Source of the DNA: Candidatus Poribacteria bacterium
GTDB lineage: Bacteria; Poribacteria; WGA-4E; PCPOR2b
Reading direction: 5' to 3'
Length of the DNA stretch: 64,000 bases
Assembly (NCBI GenBank): GCA_965215015.1
Contig: OZ244042.1
Span: 3,424,001 to 3,488,000 of the forward strand
Under the pieces are notes generated by a model. That model saw only the letters and a program-made list of their open reading frames with translations. It did not search any database and was not told where the DNA came from. This document shows, in pieces, positions 28,524 to 47,561 of this stretch. The translations under genes and the position numbers were made by a program. Position 1 is the first letter of the stretch. Each line of letters begins with the position of its first letter.

Positions 28524-28817
28524 GGTGTTCTCCTGTTAGTTTGGATGAGAAGAAAAACATCCACAAATCTACGCGAATTTTCGCTAATAGAATTTTTCAG
28601 CCCCCTTTTCATCGGGTCAATGGTTGTAACTGCGGGACGGTTTTCCGAAGGATATACCCGAAATTGTCCTTTCAGTCCCCTTTTCATTGGGTCAATGGTT
28701 GTAACTACAGGCGAGCGTGCTGCGATTAATTACTGGATGAACTTTCAGTCCCCTTTTCATCGGGTCAATGATTGTAACTTGGCGAGTTTGGGTTGACGGC
28801 ACTCGCCAGCCGTAAGA

Positions 28818-29252
28818 TTATTCTTCTATGAAAAAGATATCGGGGTTGACTTTGAGAAAATCACAGATTTTGAGAAAATCCTCAATCTTGATTGTCTCTG
28901 GCGTTTTCATTTTGAAGGACATTGCTGCCTTCGTTAGCCCGATGTGTCGCCCGACCTCAATCTGCTTCCGCGCTTGGACAGCCTCGCGAAAAACGTTTGT
29001 ATCAAGTTTCATTCCGCACCTCGCCTGTGGCGCTGCATTTTCGGGCGTGCCGTCGCCGGATGCGATAAAGCGATCGGGGTTAGCGTTGATAAAATCACAG
29101 ATTTTGAGAAAAACCCCGACCTTGATTTTTTCGGGCGTCCTCATTTTAAAGGACATCGATTCTGGAGTTAGCCCGATATGTCGCGCAACTTCGTACAGCT
29201 TCCGCGGCGACTTCTTGACTGCCCCGCGAAAGCTGGCGGTATCCAGCTTCAT
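28818..29252 (-). CDS. tandem two-domain Cro/XRE-like HTH protein inside the CRISPR array
   Basis: Two about 65-aa copies of MKLDT..F...RHIGLT...MSFKM.TPE.IK...FLKICDF...PD.F; RBS AGGAGG 6 nt before ATG. Confidence 0.8.
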   Translation of the reverse strand: MKLDTASFRGAVKKSPRKLYEVARHIGLTPESMSFKMRTPEKIKVGVFLKICDFINANPDRFIASGDGTPENAAPQARCGMKLDTNVFREAVQARKQIEVGRHIGLTKAAMSFKMKTPETIKIEDFLKICDFLKVNPDIFFIEE

Positions 29253-29509
29253 TCTGCACCTCCTGTGAGCCCGGCCTCCGACAGGAGGTCGGCGAAATGG
29301 GAACTCGGCGGTGGGGGTTCAGGAATGTCAACAGGGTCGTTTCCCTCCACCAGACCGAGGGCGACTAAAATGCTGCCCTTCTCCCGTTCAACGCCGTCTA
29401 CGAAGAGATACAGTTCGCTCGAACGGCGCTTGTATGTCCATTCCCTAAGAATGGCCTGCGGCCCAAGGGCATGGATTGTGGCGCACCCCCCGGATTGCAG
29501 CTCTAACAC
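29249..29509 (-). CDS. hypothetical protein inside the array, probably a 5'-truncated foreign gene
   Basis: Frame opens 1 nt after the repeat; its stop overlaps the HTH start (ATGA coupling). Confidence 0.5.
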   Translation of the reverse strand: MLELQSGGCATIHALGPQAILREWTYKRRSSELYLFVDGVEREKGSILVALGLVEGNDPVDIPEPPPPSSHFADLLSEAGLTGGAE

Positions 29510-31232
29510 GCTTTCAGTCCCCTTTTCATCGGGTCAATGGTTGTAACTAGGCAAAATACTCACTATCAACTTTATCCATTACCTCTTTCAGTCCCCTTTT
29601 CATCGGGTCAATGGTTGTAACAACACGACGGATGGGATCACAACAGTCCAAACAGGACTTTCAGTCCCCTTTTCATCGGGTCAATGGTTGTAACATCGAA
29701 CGCAAGATACGAGAGATCTTTGAAAGCGAACTTTCAGTCCCCTTTTCATCGGGTCAATGGTTGTAACTTCTGCGATACAATCGTTGCAGGGCGACGTTTC
29801 GGCTTTCAGTCCCCTTTTCATCGGGTCAATGGTTGTAACTTATCGAATGCGGGTTACGCGGGGACTCAGGTGGCGTCTTTCAGTCCCCTTTTCATCGGGT
29901 CAATGGTTGTAACTCGGAGACTGGGAATGGAAGTACAACACTGAATGTAGCGCTTTCAGTCCCCTTTTCATCGGGTCAATGGTTGTAACTGGGTTCTGGG
30001 GGAGAGAATGGATGTTGACGAGCTGTCTTTCAGTCCCCTTTTCATCGGGTCAATGGTTGTAACTAATGCAGCTACGATTGATCAAGGTGGTCAATCGTAT
30101 CTTTCAGTCCCCTTTTCATCGGGTCAATGGTTGTAACTAAAAGTCCAAGGCTTCACGGACGAAGAACGGGCGCCTTTCAGTCCCCTTTTCATCGGGTCAA
30201 TGGTTGTAACACAAACCAGTCCACGAAATAGACGCCATCGCCTGCTTTCAGTCCCCTTTTCATCGGGTCAATGGTTGTAACCAAACGCCGAGCGTCGGGG
30301 CAATCGCATCCGCTTGTCCTTTCAGTCCCCTTTTCATCGGGTCAATGGTTGTAACTCGCTTGACGACGGTTCATACGACCATCCGCCCACGCTTTCAGTC
30401 CCCTTTTCATCGGGTCAATGGTTGTAACGTTTTCGACCCTCGCTTACCACCCCGAGCCGTCAAGCTTTCAGTCCCCTTTTCATCGGGTCAATGGTTGTAA
30501 CCATCTCAAATCTCCTTTTGCCCTTGAGGGCGATTGTGCTTTCAGTCCCCTTTTCATCGGGTCAATGGTTGTAACCTTGAACCACCGACGGAGGTGAGAC
30601 GGCGGAGCGTGCTTTCAGTCCCCTTTTCATCGGGTCAATGGTTGTAACTGGGGAGGACGAGGACAGCGTCCTCAAGGCCGTCACTTTCAGTCCCCTTTTC
30701 ATCGGGTCAATGGTTGTAACTGAAAATTGCACTGGTATGCGACGCCCGAAAAGATCTTTCAGTCCCCTTTTCATCGGGTCAATGGTTGTAACATAGCAGC
30801 GTGAATCAGATCAGACAAAGTCGTCCTCTCTTTCAGTCCCCTTTTCATCGGGTCAATGGTTGTAACTGCTAGGCAACGAGTTCATCGCCAAGAAGTCCGG
30901 GACTTTCAGTCCCCTTTTCATCGGGTCAATGGTTGTAACTAACTTTCATTGCTGTTCTCCGTTCCTCTTAAAAGCTTTCAGTCCCCTTTTCATCGGGTCA
31001 ATGGTTGTAACCTGGAGAGCAAGAGTGTCTCGGAAACGGGTGAAGCGCTTTCAGTCCCCTTTTCATCGGGTCAATGGTTGTAACTGTTGATGAACTTGAC
31101 GGCAAACGCCCGTACATCGTCTTTCAGTCCCCTTTTCATCGGGTCAATGGTTGTAACTTCTATCAGTGCAGCCTTTTGGGCTTGGATAATAGAGACTTTC
31201 AGTCCCCTTTTCATCGGGTCAATGGTTGTAAC

Positions 31233-32626: not shown

Positions 32627-32786
32627 AATTATTGTCTAAATCGCGGATTAAGCGGAGGACACGGATTGGGAAACGAATCCCGCGATGCGCTTAGATGGCA
32701 ATTTGGGTTAATAGTGTAGAAGGGGTTAGAAACCGAGTTTTGCAGAGACGGGTGGGGAAACCCCGCCCCGATGGTTTCTAGGTTGT

Positions 32787-33896: not shown

Positions 33897-34030
33897 TGTG
33901 CTGCTTCCTTTCGATTTACGTCGATCTTGAATTTCGGGTATACTTTAATCAGGAACGTAGATTTGCGTTCCCTATGCCAGTTGTCAGCAATTATGGGAGA
34001 TTGGCTGAGGTGGTTCTCGTTAATTGAGGG

Positions 34031-34339: not shown

Positions 34340-34574
34340 GCGTGCGTCATTTACTGCCCAAGGCTGACAACTTCTCAGAAGCATAACGCATCTGATTGCT
34401 ATTTCGGTCAACAGCGGAAAACTTTGGCTTGCCCCTCGAAGGGGGCTTGGAGGCGATGCCTTATTATACGCTCCACAAGAATATTGTTGAGACTGACGTG
34501 GAGGCGGGGAAGCGTATTCTCGTGGAGAAATTCGGTGAGGTCGCGGAGTTCTGTAACCGTAATTGAAAGCTCCA

Positions 34575-35108
34575 TCACCCGCCTCCTTCTAACTCGATAT
34601 CAGTATGGAACGCGCGGCTACTCGCGTTCCATACATCTTTTTTGCCCCCGGCGTCTCTAGCCCATTGATAGATAGAACTATGCGCCTTTTCGATGCTATC
34701 TAACGACGTTAGCAGCCAGTAAGCCCAATTCTGTCTGGGGAGCGCAGCAGCTAACATGAGGTTGATAGGATATTCGCTTCTCTCACCAGAATCGCGGAGG
34801 TCGTCATGAAAGATAAATACTTCTTTTTCGAGTATAGCCGCAGCGCCTAGTTCAAACATCACGCCCGGGTCAGGTGGTATCCCGTTGACGACAGCAAAAA
34901 TCCCGTCGGCTTCTTTGATGTCGAGAACGTTCTTCATGGCAAGTTCGTAAGCCCACTCCTCGGACTTGCCGATGATATGATTGTTCCGTTGAAACGGTTC
35001 CCAAACTTCAAGCCCTATCGCTTCAAGACGCTTGACGAATTCGGGGAGTACGAGTTGCCGTTCGACCGTTGAGAAGCCAAAGTCGTTGGCTAAATAGATG
35101 GTCTTCAT
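34575..35108 (-). CDS. nucleoside 2-deoxyribosyltransferase family protein
   Basis: IYLA, EVWEPF, DGIFAVVNG.PPDPGVMFELG with catalytic Glu. Confidence 0.88.
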   Translation of the reverse strand: MKTIYLANDFGFSTVERQLVLPEFVKRLEAIGLEVWEPFQRNNHIIGKSEEWAYELAMKNVLDIKEADGIFAVVNGIPPDPGVMFELGAAAILEKEVFIFHDDLRDSGERSEYPINLMLAAALPRQNWAYWLLTSLDSIEKAHSSIYQWARDAGGKKDVWNASSRAFHTDIELEGGG

Positions 35109-35122
35109 TCAAACCTCCGCGG

Positions 35123-35548
35123 TCAACCTGAAAGCACGATGATTATGGATTCTGCTTGGAATGTCTCGAGTAAGAATCTCTCACTATCGAGAATTAACAG
35201 CGCTCCTTCCGTTACTGAGACTAAAACTACAGGGAGAACAGTCGAATCCATAAGAAAGTAAACTTTGCCCGCCCGGTAATAAAAAGCCCGGAAGTTTTCA
35301 ACCGTAATACGATCGTCGTCTATGCGAATTACTCCATTATCATCGTAGTCAGCAGCAGTGAGAGGATGTTCGATTACGATCACACTATCTGTCGAGCCAT
35401 CGAGCCCCTGCTCCCCTTTCGGACCCGGCAGCCCCTGTGGGCCCATTGACCCCATTGGCCCTGTAAGCCCTTGCGGCCCCGTGGGCCCCGGCGGCCCCTC
35501 GCATCCGATGGAAATAACTAATAGTAAAACACACAACATCTCTTTCAT
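35123..35548 (-). CDS. collagen-like lipoprotein, copy 1
   Basis: Lipobox SIGC, 12 Gly-X-Y triplets, about 85-aa C-terminal head. Confidence 0.88.
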
Positions 35549-35656: not shown

Positions 35657-35720
35657 TTGCATGATGCTTGATTTCCCGGCGTTATTAGCACCTGCGAGGA
35701 GCGTTAAAGAGCGGATTGTG
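35657..35720 (-). pseudogene. AAA ATPase fragment (Walker A)
   Basis: IRSLTLLAGANNAGKSSIMQP; short fragment, boundaries approximate. Confidence 0.6.
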
Positions 35721-36103
35721 TAAAAGTACCGCCGATAGCATCTCCTCAACCTGACTGAACCCGAACTGACTCGCCAATTCGGGAACTACTTCCTCGGCTA
35801 ACTCTCGATTTACATCAGAGAGGAAGGCTCGCCTTCCCATCACGTATTCCTGCCATTCGTCAAGTTCTTTACCAACATCATGTGCGAGAACGCTGGTTAA
35901 GAGCACTTGCTCCTCGGACTCCGTCAGTGGGGGTGAGAAAGTATGCTGAAGCAGCGGTAACAATGTGATTAAAGCGTCAATTTCGATAAGTGTATGGTCA
36001 AAATAAGCTTTGCTCAAAATTTCTTCGCTTTGCGATTTTTTTTCTTCCAATCGCGATTGAGCATGAATTCAACAGCCTCTCTTCTGAATGCTTGATAATC
36101 CAT
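35717..36103 (-). pseudogene. truncated CRISPR-type HD nuclease (Cas3''/Cas10d-like N-terminus)
   Basis: GGAGG RBS and ATG at 36103; removing one base from each of two homopolymers gives MDYQAFRREAVEFMLNRDWKKKIAKRRNFEQSLFDHTLIE...AHDVGK...WQEY; ends in a junction with the ATPase fragment. Confidence 0.65.
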
Positions 36104-36417: not shown

Positions 36418-37128
36418 TTAATTTTCGCCGGTAGTAGATGGGGTAACCAATCGTTCATAATCGCTAAAACTACGACTCGATCTGTGCAATCGGTAGGGAA
36501 GCATGGCAAGGAAGGTATGCCGTTCCTTGCCAACACGGATCTTCTTCCCACTGTAGATATCAGCTTGATCGAAACTCATTTTAGCGTTGCAATCATCTAA
36601 GTGTTGTAACTGACTTTCGATGTGCCATGTCTCTGCTTGTTCAACTAGAGATATGAAGTCAGAAGGTAGTGCTTCAACTGATTGGATCGGCGGAAGAAAC
36701 TGGAAGAACCCACCACGTTTCCCAAAGTAAGTAATATTAAGCAGTAGCCGCTGCAACTGTTCTTCCTGTGAATCATCGTGAATTTCAAAGCCCAACCTCA
36801 TTTTGCCAACGAAATGGACATATTCGCGGTAGCCGATGGTTCTCTCGAATCCCTCCTTATCGCTAGAATGAGGCGGCTTGAGGATACGAGTAAATACGTT
36901 GTTGACCAAAGCGCGTTCTGGCAAATGCACTGCTAACGACAAAGTGCGAATCCATTCCCACGCTTGTTTGCCGTAGTTGATTCCTTCTGTACGGAGAGCT
37001 GCATCCAACAAGCCCATCTTTATCGCATAGGGGGTTGGTGTCAACAACGTTTTACCGCCTGACGATGTGGCATTGCTCGGCTTGAGTGAAAAGAAGGTCG
37101 TGGGTTGATAAGTTGCTAAGACCCACAT
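36418..37128 (-). CDS. cas5: type I Cas5
   Basis: FSLKPSNATSSGGKTLLTPTPYAIK, REYV, YFGKRGGF; position after cas7. Confidence 0.85.
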   Translation of the reverse strand: MWVLATYQPTTFFSLKPSNATSSGGKTLLTPTPYAIKMGLLDAALRTEGINYGKQAWEWIRTLSLAVHLPERALVNNVFTRILKPPHSSDKEGFERTIGYREYVHFVGKMRLGFEIHDDSQEEQLQRLLLNITYFGKRGGFFQFLPPIQSVEALPSDFISLVEQAETWHIESQLQHLDDCNAKMSFDQADIYSGKKIRVGKERHTFLAMLPYRLHRSSRSFSDYERLVTPSTTGEN

Positions 37129-37129
37129 T

Positions 37130-38140
37130 TTAAGTGCCTCCGTTATAGTTAATTTTGTAAGGTGCAGTTGTGTTAGCTAGGTTTGCCATAACTTCAGCAT
37201 ACTCGCCTAATGAATCAAATTTGCAGAGTTTAATCGCGCTTGTCTCGATCTGATTGAGTGCGTCTGCGACACGTCTGATTTCGTCCTTGTACTTGTCATT
37301 AAGTGGACTAACTGTAGGTGCGGGCAAAATCTTTGTGCTGAGACTAACAATTCCGTCGAAGTTCACAAGATGAGGGTGCTGAGCACTTCGCATTGCGCCG
37401 TTTGGCTCAACAAAAGTACACAGTAGGCTTTCAATCAGTGTTTTGTATCGTTGATTGCGCTCACTGTCATCAATCGCGTATTTCTGGTTGATATCGTTGA
37501 AACCAAGCCGTGAAACTTCAATGCCTGCTACAACTGCGTAAACCCCTGAATTGGCTGGACGGTGGAAGATATTCTGACCGAGATTGGCACCACTTTCATC
37601 TGTATTATCACCATTATCTGCATTCTGCTGTCCACGATCAGGTACATATTTGACATGAAAGTAGTTGTCGGTCTTAGTCAGCTCTGGTATGCCCACCACC
37701 CAACCGAACTCTACAATTGACTTGCGGGGTGTGGCCTTCTTCTTGGATCGATTTGTAACAAGGATGCCTTCAATGTCATCCATTGCACACATTTCCAACA
37801 TCGTTGTAATCATTTTGTCATCCGGTGTGCTCTGTTCGTAGCTGCTGTCAAAGGTTGAATCGTCGAGAATGCGATTTGCGCTGAACCTTTGGCAACCTGA
37901 ACATAGCTTCAGTCCACTATTTCTGCTCAAGTGGAACAGATGTTCGGCTTGAATGTGTTTGAACATATCACCTGAAATTGCGTTCACGGCAGCGAGTTTA
38001 CCCGCTTGATCATAGATGTTAACCATTCGGGTTGCGATTTGATTTCCTTCACTGCCTTCGTTATTGAGGGAGTGCATATCAATTGTGGCTCTGCCGCAGA
38101 TGGTGAGGGAGTAAAGGGCTTTGCTATCACTCATTGTCAT
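37130..38140 (-). CDS. cas7: Cas7, DevR/Cst2 family (I-A-like)
   Basis: HSLNNEG, ISGDMFKH, PRKSIVEF, IFHRPANSGVYA. Confidence 0.9.
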   Translation of the reverse strand: MTMSDSKALYSLTICGRATIDMHSLNNEGSEGNQIATRMVNIYDQAGKLAAVNAISGDMFKHIQAEHLFHLSRNSGLKLCSGCQRFSANRILDDSTFDSSYEQSTPDDKMITTMLEMCAMDDIEGILVTNRSKKKATPRKSIVEFGWVVGIPELTKTDNYFHVKYVPDRGQQNADNGDNTDESGANLGQNIFHRPANSGVYAVVAGIEVSRLGFNDINQKYAIDDSERNQRYKTLIESLLCTFVEPNGAMRSAQHPHLVNFDGIVSLSTKILPAPTVSPLNDKYKDEIRRVADALNQIETSAIKLCKFDSLGEYAEVMANLANTTAPYKINYNGGT

Positions 38141-38200
38141 TCTCCTTTTCGGTATGAGGGGGTGTGGCGATATTGCTTGTTGGTCTATCTTGTCGAAAGA

Positions 38201-40006
38201 TTAAGAAGGAATATCTCCTGAACTTGTGTCAGTGGTTGTGGTAGTATCAGTTGTTGATACATCATCTCTGCTAGTAGAAGCGTATCCGAACGCCAATAGT
38301 AGATGACAAATTGTTTGAGGACCATGTTCATCAATTAATTGAACAATTTCGGTAATGTCGTCTTCACGGACACTTTTCCGCCAGTGTTGGGCTGAGTTTT
38401 CGGCTACGCTGGCATTTTCGGCGTTGAAAGAGTGAAGAAAATTACCTAACGCCTGAATGAACTCGTCCGGGTAGTTTGCCTTGCGTCGTAATTCTTGACC
38501 AAGTCCATATCGGATGTCATACGGAGGTCTTCCACTTTTTGCCATATATTGCAGCGTCACAGTACTTTGACGGATGGATCTGGCGATGTTTTGAAAGCCT
38601 TCGCTTTTAATAATTGGCGTAAGTTCTTTCTGCTTGCTCATCAGTAGACTCCTCAAATTGGTTGCGCTCAACGGCTTAACCCAGAAGTTTTCCTTCACTA
38701 AGGCGTTGAGCAGATAGTTTGGATATTGTGATGTGAATTCAAAGAACGCTGTAAAATCGTTTGCGGAAAGAAAATTTCGATAGTGCTGGAGTAGTTGGTA
38801 ACCCTCACTCCGTTCCTCCTCTAAACTTTTTACGATGTTGAGGTGTTCCTCTATCACCCCCTGGTACACTTGCACATCATTTCTATCTTTAATGTTCATC
38901 CAGCTGGGTAGATTGATAAAGGAAAGGTTCATTACGGCGGCCGAGTTGCCGAGATCCTTATAAAATGCGGTGTGTAAGCCCGCTACAAAGTTTTCAGGGG
39001 CACGCCCCTGCAACTCCACAGCTAAGGAAGCACTTGCTTCTGCTTCACAGTGTCGTAGAAAGCACTTTGTGTAGCTGAGTGCAGCAAAGATGTCCGATTT
39101 AATTGCGTGTCGGTTCCCTACCACATCCCTGAATCTTGCGAAAATTGTGTTGTGCTCATCCAATGTGATATTGACCGGGGCTAGTGCAAAGGTCTTCCGA
39201 TCCTTCGGGGGCTCGCCCTGTTTTACTAACACGAAGCGGGGTACTGCACAATGGTAGAAACCAACCATCTTCAGATATTCGCATAGCCAGAAGCTGTTTA
39301 CATTCTTCATTGACAAGCTGCTTGCTTTGGTGGCGTTCTGTCCTTTGCCTGTGCTTGGGTTGAACACTTGGAGCATATTCAAGCGATCTTTACCGATAAA
39401 CTGTTTCTCTTTTTTGAGTTTTTTCCATGCTTGCTCACAGGTCGCAACTGGGTTTGGAATTTTAGCATGGAGTGCCAGCAACAGCTTGAGTAACTCCGCG
39501 AAGTGCTCACGGGTTTCATACCAATTGGTGACGGCTGAATTGTAAGCACTAATCCCTGACATCATGTTGATTTTCTGCCAAATGCGATAATTGGGGTCTG
39601 GTTCACTTTCTCTCAAAACTGTAAGTGCTTCGCTGTCGTCGGCATTCTGCTTTAGTGTATCACCTAGAGTCCTGCGTAATTCGTTGTAGTCATCGTAACG
39701 CTCTTTTTCTCCGTTGTAATCTATGTTGTAAATATCCTCCGGCATTGTTTCACTGTTCTTTGGTGTTTTAATAAAAGGGATAGGGGCAAAGGAGCTTTTT
39801 AAATTCTCAACCCATTCTGCTTGTAACGCAGGAATGAGTTCAATCGCATAGGTTGTCCCCCTATCCAAAATCTTGATAGTATGGGACTCATATTCGCCGA
39901 GGGTACGTTGCAAAAGTTGGTGTAAGATAGTTGCTAATCCATAAGCGGAACAGACATCAGCAAATGTGCCTGTTTGTTTGTCAACGAAATAGGTCTGTTG
40001 GTACAT
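38201..40006 (-). CDS. cas8: putative Cas8 large subunit with C-terminal Cas11-like domain
   Basis: 601 aa between cas3 and cas7; NPSTGKGQN motif; helical C-terminus. Assigned mainly by position. Confidence 0.72.
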   Translation of the reverse strand: MYQQTYFVDKQTGTFADVCSAYGLATILHQLLQRTLGEYESHTIKILDRGTTYAIELIPALQAEWVENLKSSFAPIPFIKTPKNSETMPEDIYNIDYNGEKERYDDYNELRRTLGDTLKQNADDSEALTVLRESEPDPNYRIWQKINMMSGISAYNSAVTNWYETREHFAELLKLLLALHAKIPNPVATCEQAWKKLKKEKQFIGKDRLNMLQVFNPSTGKGQNATKASSLSMKNVNSFWLCEYLKMVGFYHCAVPRFVLVKQGEPPKDRKTFALAPVNITLDEHNTIFARFRDVVGNRHAIKSDIFAALSYTKCFLRHCEAEASASLAVELQGRAPENFVAGLHTAFYKDLGNSAAVMNLSFINLPSWMNIKDRNDVQVYQGVIEEHLNIVKSLEEERSEGYQLLQHYRNFLSANDFTAFFEFTSQYPNYLLNALVKENFWVKPLSATNLRSLLMSKQKELTPIIKSEGFQNIARSIRQSTVTLQYMAKSGRPPYDIRYGLGQELRRKANYPDEFIQALGNFLHSFNAENASVAENSAQHWRKSVREDDITEIVQLIDEHGPQTICHLLLAFGYASTSRDDVSTTDTTTTTDTSSGDIPS

Positions 40007-40019
40007 CAGTTCTCACTCC

Positions 40020-42437
40020 TTATATACTGATTTGTGAAGTTGCTTCTTGGTCAGCGAGTCGTAAGGCTCGGACAATTAAAAAATAAGTCAACAGCGAAGG
40101 TGTGTTGCTTGGGGACACAAACATACCGGTTAATGACCGGGGTTGATCTTGTGTACAAATCTTTTCTAAGTGGGTTTGAGCCACCTGCCCCGCCTCCCCA
40201 ATCATTTGTAAAGTTGTTTCGATTGAAGTTTGGAAATCGGGATGGAGTTCGTAAGTCTGGTATTGATCGGCTTTCGGCGCATGATGACGCGCAATTGCAG
40301 TAAGACTAGCTTTGAATAAAATCTCTTGATCGTAGAAAGTAGCCCCTAGTAAAGGTGCGACGGCGCGCATACTCTCAACAGCATGTGGGGGCCGTTTAAC
40401 AGGGAAATGTTTCTCCTTTTCGCGTACTGCGGAGTTACCTCGGTTGTAATCGGTATGGGCCGCCATATAGTTTGGATCAATAGGTTTATCAATCAACCGT
40501 TGCCATTCATGTGCCCACCGCTGCCAACCACACGTCAGTTTTCCGATATCGTGCAGAGCAATGCAGAGTCGAATCGTCTGATCAATTGCGCCCTCTTTTG
40601 TTTCCAACCTCTGCTCAAGTTGGGAGGCGGCGTAACTTAGTTCAGCCTCTAGCCCAGCGTCGTATACGTTTAGCAAGCGTTCGATGTGTTCCGTGTATGT
40701 CTCACGGCGATAACCTGTGCTGAGCTCACGTTCTCGGGGGGCTTCGCCCTCAGAGATGCTTAATGCACAAGGCTTTTCCCCCGTTTCAAGCTGAAAGCCT
40801 ATTTTGTCATCGTATGCGACCAATTGTGGATGCACAATAAACAGTGGCGAAATCCCTAAAGTTTCCTTCTCCTTTACTTCGCGCCAGTTGTAGGTGATTG
40901 TAGTACGGCTGTTTGGTGAATCGTCCTCGGCTTCAATAGGATACTTTAGCACCCAACCCAGTCCTTGCTTTTGTGCCTCTTCTTGAAGTTTATCCCACGC
41001 TCCAAAGAGTGTGCCGCGATAGAGATTGAAGCCTTCAACTCGAAACGGTTTATCAAGTGTCTCAGGTTTGTCATGCACGAGAAGCGTTCGGGAATCATTC
41101 TTACGAATCAACTCACGAGCAAGAGCCAATTCTTGGTTAGATATTGCCCTCTCCATTTTATCGCGCTTATCGCTGCTCGCAAGTTGCTCTAATATCTTCT
41201 CATCGCTTTCGCGGTGGACTTCGTTGATAACCTCTTGCTCTGCCGTAAAGTTCAACACCCTTCCGTTTCGTTGCTGGAATGCAGCTATTGTCAGTTCACA
41301 AGTTTTCTTTTCGTAGGGGGCGTAATTTAGTGAGCCATCAGGCCGAGATGGCACGGGATAGATTCGCACTGTGCCTGATTCATTTTTGAACCTAGCACAC
41401 CGTCCGGCCCGTTGAAAAATTGCGCTTGCTGGTGCCAGTTCTGTGTGCAAATTTTCACACGTAATGTCTAAGCCAACCTCGATCACCTGTGTAGCAACCA
41501 AAATCACGTTATCGGGGCCCACACCTCGTTTGAAACGCTTGCGTATCATATCCTCTTTAGCTTTACGATCTTCCTTCAGAAAGCGAGAGTGCAATAGCAA
41601 CACTTCCGTTGTGCCACGCTGTGGGTTATCCCGCAACGACTGATACATCTTCTGTGCCCGTGCCACCGTATTGCAAATGACAATACTGCGTTGCTGGTGT
41701 TGAGTGATAACGGCGTCTGTGCTGCACAAAAGTGTTTGATTCTCAATCTTATATTCGCGGCGTTTTCCACACTGAGAAGGAATTTGTTTTAGTTCGTTCT
41801 CAGTCACCTGAACAACTTCGGCGTTAAAATATTCGCTCAAACGGTTGAGTAGCGGTTCCGAAAAAGTCGCAGTCATCAGTAAAAACGGTGTGATACCATT
41901 GAGCATTTTCAGCATTTCAATCACAGTTCCCAACGAAGTATCAGGATCGAATAAGTGAAATTCATCAAAGACTAGATATGCGCCAACAACTGCTCCCGCG
42001 TTGACATTACCCTGACGTAACCCTAGCGCATAAGGGATGTTAAGAAAACTACTCAAGACCTGATCGATTGTCGTAAAAATCAAGTCGCTACGAAACTGAC
42101 GGTCCTCCTGATTTTCACCCGTCTGAATGTTTGCCGTGAGAGTCTGTTGTCTTCCTATTGGCGATTCTTGGAAGTCGGTGTGAAAATTCTTTGCCAAAAC
42201 CCGCATTGGCGTGGCGTAAAGCAACTTCCGGGGAAATGGTTTGTCTTCCTGCTGGGCTAGCAGGAACGGAAACAACGCGGCTTTCGTCTTGCCCGCCCCC
42301 GTTGGTGCTTGTAAAATCACATTGCGCCTGTTTAACAGATGCTGTGCTACCTTGCGTTGAAATGTAAAGGGAATGAATTCAAACATTCTCTGAAACTGGT
42401 TATCCCAATACCGTTTATCTTTATCAAAATTTGACAT
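40020..42437 (-). CDS. cas3: Cas3 helicase with C-terminal HD nuclease
   Basis: APTGAGKT, DEFH, LHSRF, ATQVIEVGLDI, QRAGRCAR; C-terminal EH...LHDIGK...H...HH. Confidence 0.95.
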   Translation of the reverse strand: MSNFDKDKRYWDNQFQRMFEFIPFTFQRKVAQHLLNRRNVILQAPTGAGKTKAALFPFLLAQQEDKPFPRKLLYATPMRVLAKNFHTDFQESPIGRQQTLTANIQTGENQEDRQFRSDLIFTTIDQVLSSFLNIPYALGLRQGNVNAGAVVGAYLVFDEFHLFDPDTSLGTVIEMLKMLNGITPFLLMTATFSEPLLNRLSEYFNAEVVQVTENELKQIPSQCGKRREYKIENQTLLCSTDAVITQHQQRSIVICNTVARAQKMYQSLRDNPQRGTTEVLLLHSRFLKEDRKAKEDMIRKRFKRGVGPDNVILVATQVIEVGLDITCENLHTELAPASAIFQRAGRCARFKNESGTVRIYPVPSRPDGSLNYAPYEKKTCELTIAAFQQRNGRVLNFTAEQEVINEVHRESDEKILEQLASSDKRDKMERAISNQELALARELIRKNDSRTLLVHDKPETLDKPFRVEGFNLYRGTLFGAWDKLQEEAQKQGLGWVLKYPIEAEDDSPNSRTTITYNWREVKEKETLGISPLFIVHPQLVAYDDKIGFQLETGEKPCALSISEGEAPRERELSTGYRRETYTEHIERLLNVYDAGLEAELSYAASQLEQRLETKEGAIDQTIRLCIALHDIGKLTCGWQRWAHEWQRLIDKPIDPNYMAAHTDYNRGNSAVREKEKHFPVKRPPHAVESMRAVAPLLGATFYDQEILFKASLTAIARHHAPKADQYQTYELHPDFQTSIETTLQMIGEAGQVAQTHLEKICTQDQPRSLTGMFVSPSNTPSLLTYFLIVRALRLADQEATSQISI

Positions 42438-42783: not shown

Positions 42784-43722
42784 TTATCCAACCTTATACT
42801 TCCCCAACCCAAACGTTGCATTTTTGCCGACGTGTAGAAACGCACCCAACGCCACAAATGGCAGGAACGCCGCCAAATCGCCCGCATAGGTTACGCTGCC
42901 GACTAGCCCGCCGAGTTGCATTTTCTGATTCTGCCGCGACGAATAGCGCGTCCAATCGTGCCAACGTAATTTGCTCTGGACCGTTTGGACGGTTTCTGCC
43001 TGTGCGATGAGTCCCTTAAAATCGAGATTCAGCGATTCGCCGCAGTGGAAATATGCCAAGGCGGAGATGCGTCCAATTAAACGTCGCCAGAAGAGGTGGA
43101 ACGGGAGTTTATCCGTTATTTGCCCCTTGTGTGTGACCCGCGTGGGGGTGAGTAGGTGGACGGTCAATGAATCGGTTGGCAAAGATTCTACTTGCCGCTG
43201 GATTTCGTCGAAACAGAGTGCGTTATTGCGGTTGTGTGCCATCTGGGTGTCGCTGTCGTAGATTGATTCCCCACTATCGGTCAGGACTTGGGTCAGTTGG
43301 AAACGGCCGCGCCCCTTGCCGATGCCGATCTCACCCAAATCGCGGAAGCTGACAAGAAAATAGGGGAGGTAGTCGATGGCACGGCCGATAAGGGTGAGAC
43401 GGAACGCAAACGAATTGCCTCGGCGGTATTCACCTCGTGTGTTCAACGGATCGATGACAAAGGGTCTTGGCACATCGCCGTATGTCCGCAGTTGTTGCGC
43501 GCCCTCAAATGGGGCGGTCTCGAAGATGTACGGGTATGGGCAGACCGTTTTAAGGGTGCAGTCCCGGCAGTCAATGGGCCCTTGGGTGCAGACCATTTTT
43601 CGGAAGGCGTGTCCGAATCCGCCGCGGAGTGTGGAGCCGGCGTAGGGGGGCATCAGAATGGTTGAGAGTGCTGTTAGGATCACATGGTAGCGTGCGAATC
43701 GGAAGTTTTGAAGTGGATTCAT
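42784..43722 (-). CDS. cas6: Cas6 pre-crRNA processing endoribonuclease
   Basis: GSTLRGGFG, Cys cluster, C-terminal HVGKNATFGLG Gly loop. Confidence 0.95.
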   Translation of the reverse strand: MNPLQNFRFARYHVILTALSTILMPPYAGSTLRGGFGHAFRKMVCTQGPIDCRDCTLKTVCPYPYIFETAPFEGAQQLRTYGDVPRPFVIDPLNTRGEYRRGNSFAFRLTLIGRAIDYLPYFLVSFRDLGEIGIGKGRGRFQLTQVLTDSGESIYDSDTQMAHNRNNALCFDEIQRQVESLPTDSLTVHLLTPTRVTHKGQITDKLPFHLFWRRLIGRISALAYFHCGESLNLDFKGLIAQAETVQTVQSKLRWHDWTRYSSRQNQKMQLGGLVGSVTYAGDLAAFLPFVALGAFLHVGKNATFGLGKYKVG

Positions 43723-43738
43723 TATTGTGTCCTTTTCT

Positions 43739-43831
43739 TACATTGTCCGCTTTTCATCGCGTCATTGGGAGATGATTGATTCTCTTTTTAATAAAAAAAA
43801 CAATATTTATTTCAGTCCCCTTTTCATCGGG
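43739..43831 (-). CRISPR. degenerate one-spacer mini-array upstream of cas6
   Basis: 22/22 repeat match at 43810-43831; 21/24 match at 43745-43768; 33-nt spacer-sized gap at 43776-43808. Confidence 0.75.
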
Positions 43832-44053
43832 GCAAAATTTAAGTGAGGGGTGCTCATAATAATTGTCTGAATCGCAGATAGAGTCGATGGTACAGAAAGC
43901 ACGGATACAGATATGGGGCGCAGGTTGTTCAGGCATATCGTGCGGGGTAATCATAAAAAGGGACTGTGGCACGATACAGGTATCATAAAGCAGGTAGTAC
44001 AAGCTGCCGCTCGACTGTTGAGAAACCGAAGTCGTTCGCTAAATAGATTGTCT

Positions 44054-44521
44054 TCATTCAAACCTCCGCGGCCCACCCGAAAGCACGATAACTAGGGATT
44101 CTGCTCCGATCTTGAGTAAGTATTTGTCCTCATCGGAAATAAACAACGAGCCTTCCGCTACTGCGACTATCAAGATATAAGCACCCGAATCGATATGAAC
44201 GTAAATTTCGCCTGCCCGGTAATACAAAGCCCGGAAGTTTTCAAGCGTGATACGATCATCATCTATGAAAACTATTCCATTATCGTAGTGATCAATGGTA
44301 AGAGGCCGTTCGATTACGATCACACTATTTGCCGGGCCGGGGAAACCCTGTAGACCCTGCTCCCCTTTCTGCCCCGGCAGCCCCTGCGGGCCTATTGACC
44401 CCATTGGTCCTGTAGGCCCTTGCGGTCCTGTAGGACCCGGCGGCCCCTCGCATCCGACGAATATAACGAATAGTAAAACACTCAACATCAGTGAGTTTGT
44501 CAACGCTTTCATGACTTTCAT
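44054..44521 (-). CDS. collagen-like lipoprotein, copy 2
   Basis: FVGC lipobox, 13 Gly-X-Y triplets; followed by a 22-codon deoxyribosyltransferase stub (about 43992-44057). Confidence 0.88.
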
Positions 44522-44615
44522 TGCTTTATCCTTTCATGTTGCGCCCGAACAGGCACTCTTGCGTAAGCGATCTGAAGCCGCTTACCGTTATTTTAGTGAT
44601 GCCTTGAGTCGTTTT

Positions 44616-44978
44616 TTATAGCCTTTCATGGCGTGTAGCCCATTGTATCGACACCGACTGAGATACAGTTATCTCAAGGTTCTCAGGATCGCCTCCGAGC
44701 AGATCGAGTGCAGCAGTGCCAGTGACGCGCCTTTCGTTCTGCAACCGCAGCGATTCTTTTTTAAAGCGGTCTCTCATTCGTACCGCTAACTCGGATCGGT
44801 TCTCAATGTCGAAGAAGCAGCCCCACTGTTCGGATTTGCCGACGATACGATTGTTCCGTTCAAACGGCTCCCAGACTTCAAGCCCTATCGCTTCAAGCCG
44901 CTTGACGAATTCGGGGAGCACGAGCTGCCGTTCAACTGCTGAGAAACCGAAGGCGTTGGCTAAATAGATAGTTTTCAT
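44616..44978 (-). pseudogene. chimeric ORF: N-terminal 52 aa of deoxyribosyltransferase fused to an unrelated C-terminal fragment
   Basis: Identity to 34575-35108 stops after KSEQW; the tail sequence is duplicated at about 46365-46492. Confidence 0.8.
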
Positions 44979-45737
44979 TCAGACCTCCCGCGGTGAATCC
45001 TCAAGCACGATGACTATGGCTTCTGGTTCTATCTGAAGTAAGATTTTGTCAGGATCGGCAATCCGCACCGCTCCTTCCTCGACTCCGACCACCAATACGG
45101 GTCTAAAATGTGTATCAATAAGAACATAAACGTGACTGTCCCTGTAATACAAAGCTCGGAAGCTTTCAAGAGTGATACGATCGTCAAATATGCGAATGAT
45201 TCGATTATGATCGTAGCTCGCAGCAGTAAAAGGCTGTTCGATGACGATCACACGATTTGCCGGGCCGGGGAACCCCTGCTCCCCTTTGGGTCCCGTGAGT
45301 CCTGTAGCCCCTTTCGGACCCGGAGGCCCTTCTATGCCCTGCAGACCCTTTGGCCCTATGGGTCCGAGTGGGCCTTCTATGCCCTGTAGACCTCGCTCAC
45401 CCCGTAAACCTTGTATGCCCTGCAGGCCCTGTAGACCTTGGGGGCCCTCGGGTCCGATTAGCCCCGGCGGCCCTTCTATGCCTTGCGGCCCTCGCTCACC
45501 TCGTAACCCTTCTGTGCCTTGCGGCCCTCGCTCACCTCGTAACCCTTGTATGCCCTGCAGGCCCTGTAGACCTTGTTCGCCTTGTTCGCCCTGTTCGCCC
45601 GCCGGCCCCATTGGACCCATTGGACCCGTCGGCCCTGTGGGCCCCGGCGGCCCCTCGCATCCGACGAATATAACGAATAACAAAACACTCAACATCCGTG
45701 AGTGTATCAACGCTTTCATTGCTTTCATGACTTTCAT
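44979..45737 (-). CDS. collagen-like lipoprotein, copy 3 (long stalk)
   Basis: FVGC lipobox, 44 Gly-X-Y triplets with internal repeats. Confidence 0.9.
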
Positions 45738-45830
45738 TGTTTTATCCTTTCATGGTGCGCCCGAACAGGCGCTGAGTTGAGAAACCGAAGTCGTTCGCTA
45801 AATAGATGGTCTTCATTCAAACCTCCGCGG

Positions 45831-46265
45831 TCAACCTGAAAGCACGATGATTATGGATTCTGCTTGGAATGTCTCGAGTAAGAATCTCTCGCTATCGACA
45901 ATTAACAGCGCTCCTTCCGTTACTGAGACTAAAACTACAGGGAGAACAGTCGAATCCATAAGAAAGTAAACTTTGCCCGCCCGGTAATAAAAAGTCCGGA
46001 AGTTTTCAACCGTAATACGATCGTCATCGATGCGAATGACTCCATTATCATCGTAGTCAGCAGCAGTGAGAGGATGTTCGATTGCAATCACACTATCTGC
46101 CGAGCCATCGAGCCCCTGCTCCCCTTTCGGACCCGGCAGTCCTTGTGGTCCCATTGACCCCATTGGACCTGTAGGCCCTTGCGGCCCCATGGGACCCGGC
46201 GGCCCCTCGCATCCGACGAATATAACGAATAGAAAAACACATAACATCTCTTTCATGACTTTCAT
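45831..46265 (-). CDS. collagen-like lipoprotein, copy 4
   Basis: FVGC lipobox, 12 triplets, head almost identical to copy 1; followed by a 14-codon deoxyribosyltransferase stub (about 45776-45816). Confidence 0.88.
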
Positions 46266-46512
46266 TGCTTTATCCTTTCATGTTGCGCCCGAACAGGCAC
46301 TCTTGCGTAAGCGATCTGAAGCCGCTTACCGTTATTTTAATGAGGCCTTGAATAGTCATTTTTTATAGCCTTTCATGGCGTGTAGCCCATTGTATCGGCA
46401 CTGACTGGGATACAGTGATCTCAAGGTTCTCAGAATCGCCTCCAAGCAGATCGAGTGCAGCAGCGCCGGTTACACGCCTTTCGTTTTGCAACTTAACTGA
46501 GTTTTCAATTAT

Positions 46513-46546
46513 ATTATACAGATCCATACCGTCAGAACATGTCGGT
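46513..46546 (-). promoter_or_regulatory. putative WYL-activator promoter 2
   Basis: ACCGACATGTTCTGACGG-N10-TATAAT, 25 bp downstream of the WYL stop. Confidence 0.65.
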
Positions 46547-46571
46547 TGTCTAAAATTTTTGTTGTTTTTTA

Positions 46572-47561
46572 CTAGCTCTGGTATTTTTTTATCATTTTTG
46601 TGATTTCTTGGGCGATTTCCTCACGAAAATCGGGGGGCGTGAGCACTTCCGCACAACTGCCCCATTGCAAAATCTGACGCATTAGCCCTTCTCGGCCTTC
46701 GGTATCGAAATGCAGCTCGATTTGGTCGTCCCCGAGGTCAATCTGTTTTTGCAAACCCTGCCATTTCTGGGCGCGTACCCAGCGGGACGCGGGTGGGTTC
46801 ACACGGATGATCGCCTGTACAGGTTGGTCTTTCATGCCGCCGAAGCCGCGTGTGATGTACTCGTTGAGGTCAAAGTCCTCCTGAAGTTCAAAGGTTTCGT
46901 CGAGAAGTGTCAGGGAGCGCATCCGGTCGTCAAATACAAATTCGCGGAGTGCTTTTCGGGTATGGCAATAGCCGATTAGTCGCAGCGCGTTGTCCGAATA
47001 GGCGATGCCGTAAGGGTCAACCTTGCGTTGGCGGGATTCGCCCCGGCTCGCAGAATGATAGAGGAGGTCGAGGCGTTTCCGTTCTTCACAGGCGGTTTGT
47101 GCTTGGCTGATGTGTGGTGCGACATTTTGAAAATCTGTCACGGGTTGGAGTCGAAACGCGAGGATGTTTTGAATACGGTTAAAGTAGTCCTGACTTTCAA
47201 CCGGCAGTGTGGCGTGAATTTTTTTAAGGGCGTTGGTGAGTGCTTCAAAGTATGGCGTTCCTTTGAGGAACGTGGTGGCATCTTGTGCGATGGTCAACGC
47301 CAACCGTTCGGGTACCGACAGATCGAGTGCTGGGAACTGGTAATCTTCCTTGAATCTATAGCGCACTTGCTGCCCCTCCCTCTCTTTCAGAATTGATGGA
47401 AAATACCGCATGAGGCTAGGGAGGTCCCGGTCAATCGTGCGTTCACTGACACCGATCTCAGCAATCAGCTGTTGCTTTGTGATACCGTAACGTCTGTTAA
47501 TCTTCTGCAGAATCAGCCATTGCCGCTCTATTTGCTTTTCGTCTGCAATTCGTTGGGGCAT
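46572..47561 (-). CDS. HTH-WYL-WCX transcriptional regulator
   Basis: GVSERTIDRDL wHTH; R.VDPYG, GYCH.R...REF...R WYL core; LQWG...EVL.P..R C-terminus. Confidence 0.93.
   Translation of the reverse strand: MPQRIADEKQIERQWLILQKINRRYGITKQQLIAEIGVSERTIDRDLPSLMRYFPSILKEREGQQVRYRFKEDYQFPALDLSVPERLALTIAQDATTFLKGTPYFEALTNALKKIHATLPVESQDYFNRIQNILAFRLQPVTDFQNVAPHISQAQTACEERKRLDLLYHSASRGESRQRKVDPYGIAYSDNALRLIGYCHTRKALREFVFDDRMRSLTLLDETFELQEDFDLNEYITRGFGGMKDQPVQAIIRVNPPASRWVRAQKWQGLQKQIDLGDDQIELHFDTEGREGLMRQILQWGSCAEVLTPPDFREEIAQEITKMIKKYQS

What the first reader, a model, noticed from the sequence alone, without database searches (positions are those of the whole stretch)
43739..43831. Cryptic mini-CRISPR in the cas6 5' region with compensatory stem changes
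Seen (minus strand): CCCGATGAAAAGGGGACTGAAA, then a 33-nt AT-rich spacer (AAATATTGTTTTTTTTATTAAAAAGAGAATCAA), then a degenerate repeat with core CCAATGACGCGATGAAAAGCGGAC, ending 16 nt before the cas6 ATG. The second repeat changes stem CCC/GGG to CGC/GCG, a paired substitution that preserves the hairpin. Known: CRISPR-resembling RNAs (CreA/CreR) guide Cascade to repress promoters. Inference: this is either such a regulatory RNA or a Cas6 cleavage site in its own mRNA leader (negative feedback). I found no convincing target in the window.
Basis: partly seen in the sequence, partly recalled or inferred. Interest (0 to 1): 0.78.

Follow-up and report, generated by a model that had tools for sequence, protein, structure and literature searches.

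The report
Degenerate mini-CRISPR ahead of cas6
Just upstream of the cas6 gene sit two decayed CRISPR repeats around a spacer-like stretch, a relic of a self-regulating guide RNA seen in related genomes, and the repeat nearest the gene is kept so faithfully in relatives that Cas6 probably acts on its own messenger RNA.

Summary
On the minus strand, 43845-43739 holds psiR1, a 33-nt AT-rich psiS and psiR2, ending 16 nt before the cas6 ATG.

The CGC/GCG stem is not private to psiR2. It is a repeat allele of this clade: stem pair 16-27 is C-G in 559, G-C in 133 and unpaired in 2 of 694 array repeats.

Homologous mini-arrays occur in five relatives, whose records are titled Candidatus Poribacteria. 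Each psiS has one seed-first match with a CCT/CCC flank, just downstream of a promoter heading its own operon. That is the CreR/crRNA-like autorepression design.

In this genome no target exists, and the gene that carries the target in relatives is absent. The guide role looks lost here.

psiR2 alone is kept about 35 nt before cas6 in 12 of 20 loci, beside three different effector modules. It is far more conserved than silent sites of cas6. The best reading is a Cas6 recognition hairpin in the cas6 leader. This is inferred: no RNA data were available.

The parts
43809..43845 (-). psiR1: a degenerate repeat. The 3' 24 nt are repeat-like, with a 4-bp CCCC/GGGG stem and an 8-nt handle ending in T instead of G. 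The 5' 13 nt are unrelated to the repeat.
   Evidence: 10 mismatches of 37, all but one in the 5' half. (fold -8 kcal/mol, z -2.2). (Rfam CRISPR-DR10, 21.9 bits, below threshold); similar to the first repeat of the mini-arrays upstream of cas10d in G057 and G053.
43776..43808 (-). psiS: a 33-nt AT-rich spacer-like stretch. Both ends resemble the psiS of the mini-arrays of G042, G053 and G057. The own copy has four extra bases at the 5' end and an A/T-run middle.
   Evidence: comparison by eye. No target was found in the genome.
43739..43775 (-). psiR2: a degenerate repeat that keeps repeat positions 11-31 (hairpin 43748-43761 with a CGC/GCG stem) and loses the last six bases of the 5'-handle region.
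   Evidence: (present in 12 of 20 loci at about -35). (conservation against 4-fold sites). (position profile).
43723..43746 (-). The 24-nt leader that would remain on the cas6 mRNA if Cas6 cut psiR2 at the canonical place (after G43747). It contains the purine-rich ribosome-binding stretch around 43730-43734.
   Evidence: The cut position is inferred from the 8-nt handle rule of Cas6-type processing (established knowledge, recalled), not measured.
42784..43722 (-). cas6 (312 aa).
   Evidence: PADLOC Cas6, 2.2e-108. (TIGR01877, weak). (orthologues of 73-92% identity in relatives).
43839..43873 (-). A 35-nt motif directly 5' of psiR1. It recurs at 34020-34054 (91%), 34123, 34226 and at the cas2 start (32608). 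It marks the upstream flank as locus-internal duplicated sequence.
   Evidence: family D19.
44054..46265 (-). A cluster of collagen-repeat genes lying between the WYL-controlled promoter and the mini-array. It is paralogous to 35123-35548. The sigma-factor or small-ORF gene that carries the target in relatives is absent.
   Evidence: families D2, D5, D10-D17; Collagen PF01391; no homologue of the relatives' cargo genes in the genome.
46510..46571 (-). A promoter-like stretch with an imperfect palindrome directly after the WYL gene. The same arrangement stands directly before psiR2-cas6 in G003, G005 and G006.
   Evidence: read by eye; not called by a tool in the window.
46572..47561 (-). CRISPR-associated regulator gene with a WYL domain.
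   Evidence: PADLOC WYL, 1.4e-39; 83-86% orthologues in G003, G005, G006, G014.
28594..31232 (-). The genuine CRISPR array: 27 repeats of 37 nt, with a 733-nt insertion at 28779-29510.
36418..42437 (-). Effector genes: cas3 (helicase plus a C-terminal HD), a cas8a-like gene, cas7 and a cas5a-like gene.

Best explanation
**What it is**
- The element is a degenerate two-repeat mini-CRISPR. It belongs to a family that, in related genomes, makes a crRNA-like RNA.
- In those genomes the RNA guides the type I effector to the first 30 or so transcribed bases of the operon that holds the mini-array and the cas genes. This is autorepression of the CreR / crRNA-like kind.

**State in this genome**
- The upstream part of that operon, including promoter, target and cargo gene, has been replaced by duplicated collagen-gene sequence.
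- The spacer-like stretch has drifted and has no target. The guide function is therefore most likely lost (inferred).

**What remains under selection**
- psiR2 mimics the part of the repeat that Cas6 recognises: the hairpin and two bases beyond the cut. It does not mimic the part that Cascade holds.
- It sits in the cas6 leader 24 nt before the ATG, whichever effector module follows.
- Most likely Cas6 binds and cuts its own mRNA leader there. This trims away the long, structured upstream RNA and couples cas6 expression to free Cas6, a feedback by substrate mimicry whose sign is unknown.

**Shown:** anatomy, homology, targets in relatives, and selection on psiR2.
**Inferred:** transcription, Cas6 cleavage and any feedback.
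For: **Anatomy**
- Sequence and register are given.

**Stem allele**
- Pair 16-27 is C-G in 559, G-C in 133 and mismatched in 2 of 694 array repeats.
- G036 carries both alleles in one array, so closely related Cas6 proteins (75-92% identity) handle both.

**Family of mini-arrays**
- Mini-arrays stand directly before cas6 in own, G014 and G048 (3 of 20 loci).
- They stand before cas10d in G042, G053 and G057.

**Targets in relatives**
- Each of the 5 relatives' psiS has exactly one site in its 20-kb locus with a CC flank and at most 1 mismatch at the 12 non-sixth seed positions.
- The mismatches fall at positions 6 and 12.
- Only 1-7 of 500 shuffled seeds give any site.
- Every site lies on the opposite strand, just after a sigma-70-like promoter at the operon head. 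The scan tool called that promoter in 4 of 5 loci, at 10-12 of 12 matches, but not in G048.
- The psiS of G042 differs from that of G053 at seed positions 9 and 13, and its target differs in the same way.

**Loss in this genome**
- There are 0 such sites in the locus, and none above chance in the genome.
- There is no homologue of the relatives' cargo genes.
- The flank 5' of psiR1 is duplicated sequence.

**Selection on psiR2**
- It is present at about -35 in 12 of 20 loci. These stand beside I-D (G002), I-B (G003, G048) and Cas8a/Cas5a-like (own, G014) modules.
- 13 of its 18 core columns are invariant across 12 loci. In the same loci, cas6 four-fold sites are 54% identical pairwise and only 3 of 86 columns are invariant.
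- It keeps repeat positions 11-31 and drops 32-37.
- It keeps the CGC/GCG allele in 11 of 12 psiR2 loci (the own genome and 10 relatives) whose arrays carry the other allele. This argues against gene conversion from the array.
Against: - No RNA data exist for this organism, so transcription, cleavage and feedback are all unshown.
- The hairpin is weak on its own (z = -0.38).
- 6 of 20 loci (G021, G028, G053, G036, G026, G051) have cas6 without psiR2 within 260 nt, so it is dispensable.
- The psiR2 loop does not follow loop changes in the arrays of G004, G014 and G005.
- psiR1 is still a perfect 22-nt copy of the present repeat. That is odd for a long-orphaned unit and could mean the mini-array is still used.
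- The CC flank was read off the same five hits that the control then counts, so that control is partly circular.
- The five relatives are kin, at most three independent lineages.
- Three of them carry I-D effectors, for which the PAM I recall from the literature is GTN, not CCN.
- G057's own cas6 upstream region was not examined.
Confidence: 0.55

Rival explanations
1. The own mini-array is still a working CreR-type guide. Its RNA directs the Cas8a/Cas5a-like effector to a target that I failed to recognise, in the chromosome or on a mobile element, with a short seed or another PAM.
For: - psiR1 is intact over 22 nt, and the unit has array-like spacing.
- The family does this job in relatives.
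- One weak candidate exists on the strand opposite to cas3, at window 42407, with a CCC flank. It covers the cas3 start codon, in a register shifted by one base.
Against: - The candidate has 2 mismatches in 10 non-sixth seed positions, one of them at position 5.
- It is one of 11 equally good CC-flanked hits in the 64-kb window over four registers.
- Genome-wide hits with at most 2 seed mismatches number 29 and 36 in the two registers. By my rough estimate that is roughly 2-3 times the uniform-base expectation, which I put down to AT/homopolymer bias and did not test, and none lies at a cas promoter.
- The own psiS has a four-base insertion at the seed end relative to its homologues.
Confidence: 0.15
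2. psiR2 is conserved for a reason other than Cas6. It might be a binding site for another protein, or part of the translation-initiation region. For example, a short upstream ORF starts at the loop ATG and ends overlapping the cas6 start codon, giving translational coupling.
For: - In own, G014, G005 and G015, the loop ATG opens an 11-12-codon ORF whose stop overlaps the cas6 ATG.
- The stretch between the hairpin and the ATG is also fairly conserved.
Against: - The short ORF exists in only 4 of 12 loci. In three loci the loop has no ATG, and in the others the frame differs.
- The invariant columns are exactly the stem and loop shared with the CRISPR repeat.
- The regulators next to the loci differ, being WYL paralogues of 28% or 85% identity, while psiR2 stays the same.
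Confidence: 0.15
3. The whole element is a neutral relic of an old array or mini-array, with no present function in any part.
For: - There is no target.
- psiS is low-complexity.
- 6 of 20 loci lack psiR2.
Against: - The psiR2 core is nearly invariant across loci whose silent sites are 46% diverged.
- Its distance to the ATG is fixed.
Confidence: 0.1

Closest known systems
CreR / CreA: Cas-regulating RNAs from degenerate mini-CRISPRs (bioRxiv 10.1101/2023.03.10.532045; passages read)
   Same: - Two degenerate repeats flank a spacer-like stretch inside a cas locus.
- In the five relatives the match to the target is partial, seed-first and PAM-flanked, and lies at the promoter that drives cas genes.
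   Different: - In this genome no target exists.
- The paper's passages name I-B, I-E and V-A (tested) and I-C, I-D, I-F and I-U (seen), with CreA/CreR placed between cas6 and cas8 or near the effector promoter.
- Here the unit abuts cas6 itself, and one family serves loci with three different effector modules.
crRNA-like regulatory mini-arrays and single repeat units (Shmakov et al., bioRxiv 10.1101/2023.03.03.530964; passages read)
   Same: - They report repeat-like sequences enriched near cas6 in I-B loci (27%).
- They report mini-arrays upstream of cas6 that target a site between mini-array and cas6, and mini-arrays at cas10d in I-D.
- They list single repeat units of unknown role.
   Different: - In relatives here the target lies 680-800 nt upstream, or 50 nt in G042, at the operon head rather than between mini-array and cas6.
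- They found no mini-arrays in bacterial I-A, whereas the own effector is Cas8a/Cas5a-like by PADLOC.
- They propose no role for a lone repeat in the cas6 leader.
Sulfolobus ncRNA60, a single repeat-like motif next to the cas6-3 gene that Cas6-3 cuts in vitro (PMC4041471; passages read)
   Same: A lone repeat-like motif lies close to a cas6 gene and is a proven Cas6 substrate. Its function is unknown.
   Different: - That case is archaeal and linked to type III.
- The product is a small RNA found in the Csm complex, not the leader of the cas6 mRNA.
- No conservation analysis is given in the passages I read.
Autoregulation by substrate mimicry in an mRNA leader (ribosomal proteins, threonyl-tRNA synthetase, phage coat proteins; recalled, no call)
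   Same: An RNA-binding protein would recognise, in its own mRNA leader, a weaker copy of its normal substrate.
   Different: Not shown here. Cas6 is an endonuclease, so the outcome could be cleavage and stabilisation rather than repression.

Membership tests
CreR / crRNA-like regulatory mini-array | [quoted passage not shown] | tested here: met
   the units are 70 nt apart (array period 71-75 nt), 12.5 kb from the array, and end 16 nt before cas6.
CreR / crRNA-like regulatory mini-array | The spacer-like stretch has a PAM-flanked, seed-first partial match at or near a promoter of cas (or cargo) genes | tested here: not met
   In the own genome there are 0 sites in the locus and none above chance genome-wide. 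In relatives, 5 of 5 mini-arrays have one.
CreR / crRNA-like regulatory mini-array | Conserved in related cas loci | tested here: met
   The whole mini-array stands before cas6 in 3 of 20 loci and before cas10d in 3 more. psiR2 stands at about -35 in 12 of 20 loci. The own psiS itself has no close counterpart; its nearest relative, G002, lacks psiR1.
CreR / crRNA-like regulatory mini-array | Matured by Cas6, loaded into the effector, and represses the target promoter | not testable with these tools
   No RNA run is listed and there is no bench test.
Canonical CRISPR array | Several near-identical repeats with unique spacers next to a leader that supports acquisition | tested here: not met
   There are only two units, with 10 and 17 mismatches of 37 to the repeat (the latter by my hand count). 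The upstream flank is duplicated gene sequence. The Rfam CRISPR-DR10 match is below threshold.
CreTA (toxin RNA guarded by a CRISPR-like antitoxin) | A small toxin gene whose promoter is the target, adjacent to the mini-array | not tested
   No target was found. Only 16 nt lie between psiR2 and cas6. The 208 nt between the collagen gene and psiR1 were not examined for a toxin.
Viral solitary repeat units / RNA anti-CRISPRs (Racr; PMC10651486, abstract start in a search listing only) | A lone repeat mimic carried by a virus or other mobile element | tested here: not met
   The element lies in the host cas locus, in synteny with cas6 across 12 loci.

The most novel reading that the evidence does not exclude
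Cas6 regulates itself through a substrate mimic.
- A repeat-derived hairpin is fixed in the cas6 mRNA leader. It is kept under purifying selection through swaps of the whole effector module (I-D, I-B, Cas8a/Cas5a-like) and through loss of the partner repeat.
- Free Cas6 would cut or occupy its own messenger there.
- cas6 output would then track the balance between Cas6 and pre-crRNA.
- This would be a protein-level counterpart of the CreR circuit, and a second, effector-independent layer of CRISPR homeostasis.
Probability: 0.45. Interest if true: 0.65.

Novelty: new variant of a known kind. Interest (0 to 1): 0.5.

Why it matters
- Mini-CRISPRs that make Cascade repress its own genes were described only in 2023. 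This clade adds a family in which one mini-array lineage, with co-varying spacer and target, serves loci with three different type I effector modules.
- This genome shows what such a circuit looks like after its target has been lost.
- The more useful lead is psiR2. A lone repeat-derived hairpin held in the cas6 leader gives a simple, testable explanation for some of the unexplained 'single repeat units' near cas6 genes.
- If that explanation holds, Cas6 dosage is tied to crRNA load by cleavage or binding of its own mRNA.
- It is also a ready-made natural Cas6-responsive leader for synthetic control of gene expression.

Tried and rejected
**Target search for the own psiS**
- I ran an ungapped scan of the genome. 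The best non-self match was 25 of 33, on a repeated element.
- I ran a seed scan that ignores every sixth base, in two registers genome-wide and four registers in the window.
- I searched for the relatives' target sequences in the own genome.
- Nothing was convincing. A 16-nt identity to the relatives' psiS, downstream of a purine-synthesis gene at about G000:C1:3390942, has no repeat beside it and lies between convergent genes. A CC-flanked hit at 2529353 is the start of a signal-peptide gene.

**PAM from spacers**
- I compared 683 spacers from 17 arrays with the own genome and the fetched loci.
- Only two partial self-matches of own spacers (30/36 and 28/37, flanks CTG and ACC) and a hit to a multi-copy GC-rich palindromic element came up. 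No PAM could be read.

**RNA evidence**
- No RNA holder is listed for this stretch. Read laying was not used, because the four listed runs are contigs of unknown kind.

**Wider sampling**
- The metagenome scan for the mini-array pattern gave one contig with two matches 145 nt apart, probably an array. I did not follow it.
- Among 58 distant Cas6 homologues (38-61% identity, L071-L128) I saw no psiR2 core by eye. Two (L085, L093) end in repeat-like bases before cas6. No systematic search was done.

**Other tests**
- Folding energies are not informative for 3-4-bp stems.
- A promoter inside psiR2 or psiS was rejected. The only tool-called site (43749-43721) would start transcription inside cas6.
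- The short upstream ORF is not conserved.
- Eight spacer-like stretches next to five other solitary units gave no targets.

**Literature**
- Searches for a Cas6 site in the cas6 leader used as feedback found none. The terms were Cas6, autoregulation, repeat-like, 'leader of cas6' and 'cleaves its own mRNA', and Cas6, 'solitary repeat', 'cas operon', 'mRNA processing' and 'translational repression'.
- The library holds open-access papers and bioRxiv only, and supplements were closed.

Full report
**The observation**

The minus strand between 43845 and 43720 reads as psiR1, psiS, psiR2, 16 nt and then the cas6 ATG. The window holds a genuine array on the same strand at 28594-31232, with 27 repeats of 37 nt where none is expected by chance. 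The repeat finder places 43810-43835 (96%) and 43745-43768 (88%) in register with that repeat. They lie 70 nt apart, against an array period of 71-75 nt. In the whole 5.94-Mb genome, the 22-nt 3' core of the repeat occurs exactly only in the array, here, and at window 56309-56330. The reversed-pattern control gave 0. Folding energies of such 3-4-bp stems are not distinguishable from shuffles for psiR2 or for the true repeat.

**The locus**

On the minus strand the genes run in this order:
- cas6 (43722-42784), then a 346-nt gap;
- cas3 with the helicase first and the HD domain last;
- a Cas8a-like gene, cas7 and a Cas5a-like gene;
- a 121-aa fragment that matches the N-terminus of Cas10d;
- a collagen-repeat gene and a nucleoside deoxyribosyltransferase-like gene;
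- a 3 x 103-nt tandem repeat;
- cas1, cas2, cas4, the leader and the array.

Upstream of the mini-array lies a cluster of collagen-repeat genes (46265-44054) and, beyond it, a WYL regulator gene with a promoter-like palindromic stretch directly after it. The effector is type I. PADLOC's best models are Cas8a and Cas5a, and I leave the subtype open.

**The 'compensatory' stem change**

I collected 694 repeats from the arrays of 17 genomes of the clade. These are the own genome and 16 relatives whose record titles read Candidatus Poribacteria. The stem is four pairs around an 8-nt loop. Pair 16-27 is C-G in 559 copies, G-C in 133, and C/C or G/G in one copy each. Whole arrays in G027, G042 and G057 carry the G-C allele. 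G033 and G036 mix the two alleles in one array, 42 and 7 copies in G036. So the paired change is real covariation and supports the hairpin. It is an allele circulating among arrays served by Cas6 proteins 75-92% identical to this one, not a substitution that arose in psiR2. It follows by inference that the own Cas6 should accept psiR2's stem.

**Relatives: the mini-array family**

Orthologous cas6 genes were found in 19 relatives, and I read 260 nt upstream of each. A complete psiR1-psiS-psiR2 unit abuts cas6 in three of the 20 loci: own, G014 and G048. In the 20-kb loci of 20 relatives, three more units of the same family stand upstream of cas10d, in G042, G053 and G057.

The family has two spacer types:
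- G014 and G048 share one type.
- G042, G053 and G057 share the other. The own psiS resembles this second type at both ends, but has four extra bases at the 5' end and A/T runs in the middle (by eye).

**Relatives: the targets**

For each of the five relatives I scanned its 20-kb locus on both strands with the first 14 bases of its psiS. Each has one outstanding site:
- 12-13 of 14 bases match.
- The mismatches fall at positions 6 and/or 12, plus position 9 in G057. These are the positions a type I effector does not read (recalled knowledge).
- The site is on the strand opposite to the operon and is preceded by CCT or CCC.

With the rule 'CC flank and at most one mismatch at the 12 other seed positions', each locus has exactly one site, while 1-7 of 500 shuffled seeds give any site. 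The flank rule was read off these same hits, so this control is partly circular.

All five sites lie immediately downstream of a TTGACA-type promoter at the head of the operon that contains the mini-array. The scan tool called that promoter in four of five loci, at 10-12 of 12 matches, and not in G048, whose second hexamer lacks the final T. In G014 and G048 the first gene of that operon is an ECF-type sigma factor (Sigma70_r2 and r4). In G053 and G057 it is a 148-aa ORF with no Pfam match.

Spacer and target co-vary. G042 differs from G053 at seed positions 9 and 13, and its target differs likewise. This is the architecture described for CreR and for crRNA-like mini-arrays (passages). It is here associated with three effector modules: Cas8a/Cas5a-like (G014), I-B (G048) and I-D (G042, G053 and G057 by a Cas10d homologue; G002's Cas10d and Cas7d were confirmed). 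The I-D PAM that I recall is GTN, so which effector uses the guides in those three genomes is open.

**This genome: no target**

- The same rule gives 0 sites in the own locus, in either register.
- Genome-wide seed scans give 29 and 36 hits with at most 2 mismatches in the two registers. By my rough estimate that is roughly 2-3 times the uniform-base expectation, which I put down to AT/homopolymer bias and did not test. None lies at a cas promoter.
- Ungapped matching gives nothing above 25 of 33.
- The relatives' target sequences are absent.
- The sigma factor and the small ORFs that carry the targets in relatives have no homologue in the genome.
- The sequence directly 5' of psiR1 is a 35-nt motif that recurs at 34020-34054 (91%), twice more in the tandem repeat and at the cas2 start. 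The gene before it is a paralogue of the collagen gene at 35123-35548.

I read this as replacement of the operon head by locus-internal duplicated sequence, which orphaned the guide, after which psiS drifted. One weak candidate at the cas3 start (window 42407, CCC flank, register +1) is one of 11 equally good hits in the window, and I do not count it.

**psiR2 on its own**

The hairpin of psiR2 stands about 35 nt before the cas6 ATG in 12 of 20 loci: own, G002, G003, G004, G014, G005, G015, G006, G011, G022, G027 and G048. G042 has it about 110 nt upstream, G033 has a degenerate copy, and six loci have none within 260 nt. G057's cas6 upstream was not read.

In nine of the twelve there is no psiR1. 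Instead there is a WYL gene, a promoter with a palindrome, and a palindromic REP-like hairpin. psiR2 then lies inside a long leader and cannot yield a crRNA-like RNA with a 5' handle.

The twelve loci stand beside I-D, I-B and Cas8a/Cas5a-like modules. Across them, four-fold degenerate sites of cas6 are 54% identical pairwise (8975 comparisons), and 3 of 86 such columns are invariant. In contrast, 13 of the 18 core columns of psiR2 are invariant and the other five are at least 75% conserved.

The profile keeps repeat positions 11-31, which are the stem, the loop and two bases past the canonical cut. It replaces positions 32-37, the part of the 5' handle that belongs to the effector rather than to Cas6, with a purine-rich stretch that runs into the ribosome-binding site. 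psiR2 keeps the G-C allele in 11 of the 12 psiR2 loci, the own genome and ten relatives, whose arrays carry the C-G allele, so gene conversion from the array does not explain its conservation. It is not coding. The frame from the ATG upstream of the stem stops after three codons in most loci. The frame from the loop ATG ends overlapping the cas6 start in only 4 of 12 loci.

**How it most likely works**

Shown:
- the anatomy and the family relationship;
- the targets in relatives and the absence of a target here;
- selection on psiR2.

Inferred:
- The region is transcribed, either from the WYL-controlled promoter through the collagen genes or from an unrecognised promoter.
- Cas6 cuts after the stems of psiR1 and psiR2. 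This would release a 70-nt crRNA-like RNA (43816-43747) that no longer has anything to repress, and leave cas6 mRNA with a 24-nt leader.
- Because the enzyme would act on its own messenger, cas6 output would depend on free Cas6. Whether cutting stabilises the messenger by removing structured upstream RNA, or binding hinders initiation, cannot be told from sequence.

I put 0.55 on this composite reading. Separately, I put about 0.9 on 'genuine member of a CreR-like mini-array family', about 0.6 on 'guide function lost here', and about 0.6 on 'psiR2 is a Cas6 site'.

**Comparison with what is known**

- The 2023 survey of repeat-like elements reports enrichment near cas6 in I-B, mini-arrays upstream of cas6 whose target lies between mini-array and cas6, mini-arrays at cas10d in I-D, none in bacterial I-A, and unexplained single repeat units (passages; supplements closed).
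- The CreR preprint shows autorepression for I-B, I-E and V-A (passages).
- Sulfolobus ncRNA60 is a lone repeat-like motif next to cas6-3 that Cas6-3 cuts (passages).
- I found no paper proposing a Cas6 site in the cas6 leader as a feedback device, in the two searches.

The mini-array is therefore a new member of a known kind. The independently selected psiR2 is a variant not described in what I could read.

**Limits**

- There is no expression data (see Tried and rejected).
- The relatives are kin, and counts across them are not independent.
- Promoters other than those were read by eye.
- The alignment of the own psiS to its homologues is by eye.

Noticed in passing
window 35685-36050 (-); loci L029-L048: - Orthologous cas6, cas1-cas2-cas4 and the array are kept across relatives, while the effector module between them differs.
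- The modules are Cas8a/Cas5a-like with cas3 first (own, G014, G033), I-B (G003, G048 and others) and I-D (G002 and others).
- The own 121-aa ORF matches only the N-terminus of Cas10d (1.7e-30) and looks like a relic of a replaced I-D module.
   Followed up: partly
window 56309-56360 (+): - A second exact 22-nt copy of the repeat's 3' core is followed at once by a second, degenerate half-repeat with no spacer.
- It lies between a metallo-beta-lactamase-fold gene and a convergent ammonium transporter gene.
- Its role is unknown.
   Followed up: partly
G000:C1 near 846245(+), 2212443(-), 2389050(-), 2744670(+), 3255148(+): - Five more solitary repeat-like units lie far from the cas locus.
- At 846245 and 2744670 a second degenerate unit lies one short spacer away.
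- At 846245 and 3255148 a TTGACA-type promoter precedes the unit, by eye.
- The unit at 3255148 is flanked by a direct repeat of about 30 nt of another kind that ends in the same handle.
- No targets were found.
   Followed up: partly
window 44054-46265 and 34575-35548 (-): Paralogous collagen-triple-helix genes lie inside and beside the CRISPR-cas locus. One copy is followed by a nucleoside 2-deoxyribosyltransferase-like gene, 34575-35108.
   Followed up: no
window 34020-34350 (-) and 32608-32642 (-): A 3 x 103-nt tandem repeat stands upstream of cas1. Each of its units contains a copy of the last bases before, and the first bases of, cas2. The same motif abuts psiR1.
   Followed up: partly
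window 33930-33972 and 31570-31617 (-): A similar short inverted repeat, followed by the same few bases, stands upstream of cas1 and inside the CRISPR leader. It may be a shared regulatory site (by eye).
   Followed up: no
window 28779-29510: A 733-nt insertion splits the array and carries a 144-aa ORF with a Cro/C1-type HTH domain.
   Followed up: no
loci L010, L012, L014-L017, L019, L028; window about 32740-32770: A palindromic REP-like element is scattered through the cas loci of relatives, often between the promoter and psiR2. A half copy lies between the own cas1 and cas2.
   Followed up: no
G000:C1:1173754-1173784 and 1348150-1348176: - Two spacers of the own array have partial matches in the own chromosome: 30 of 36, and 28 of 37 with the seed end mismatched.
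- One spacer of G004 matches a multi-copy GC-rich palindromic element of the own genome.
   Followed up: partly
loci L032 (G014) and L042 (G048): In these relatives an ECF-type sigma factor gene is the first gene of the autorepressed operon, ahead of the mini-array and cas6. This suggests a sigma-factor layer in cas control.
   Followed up: partly
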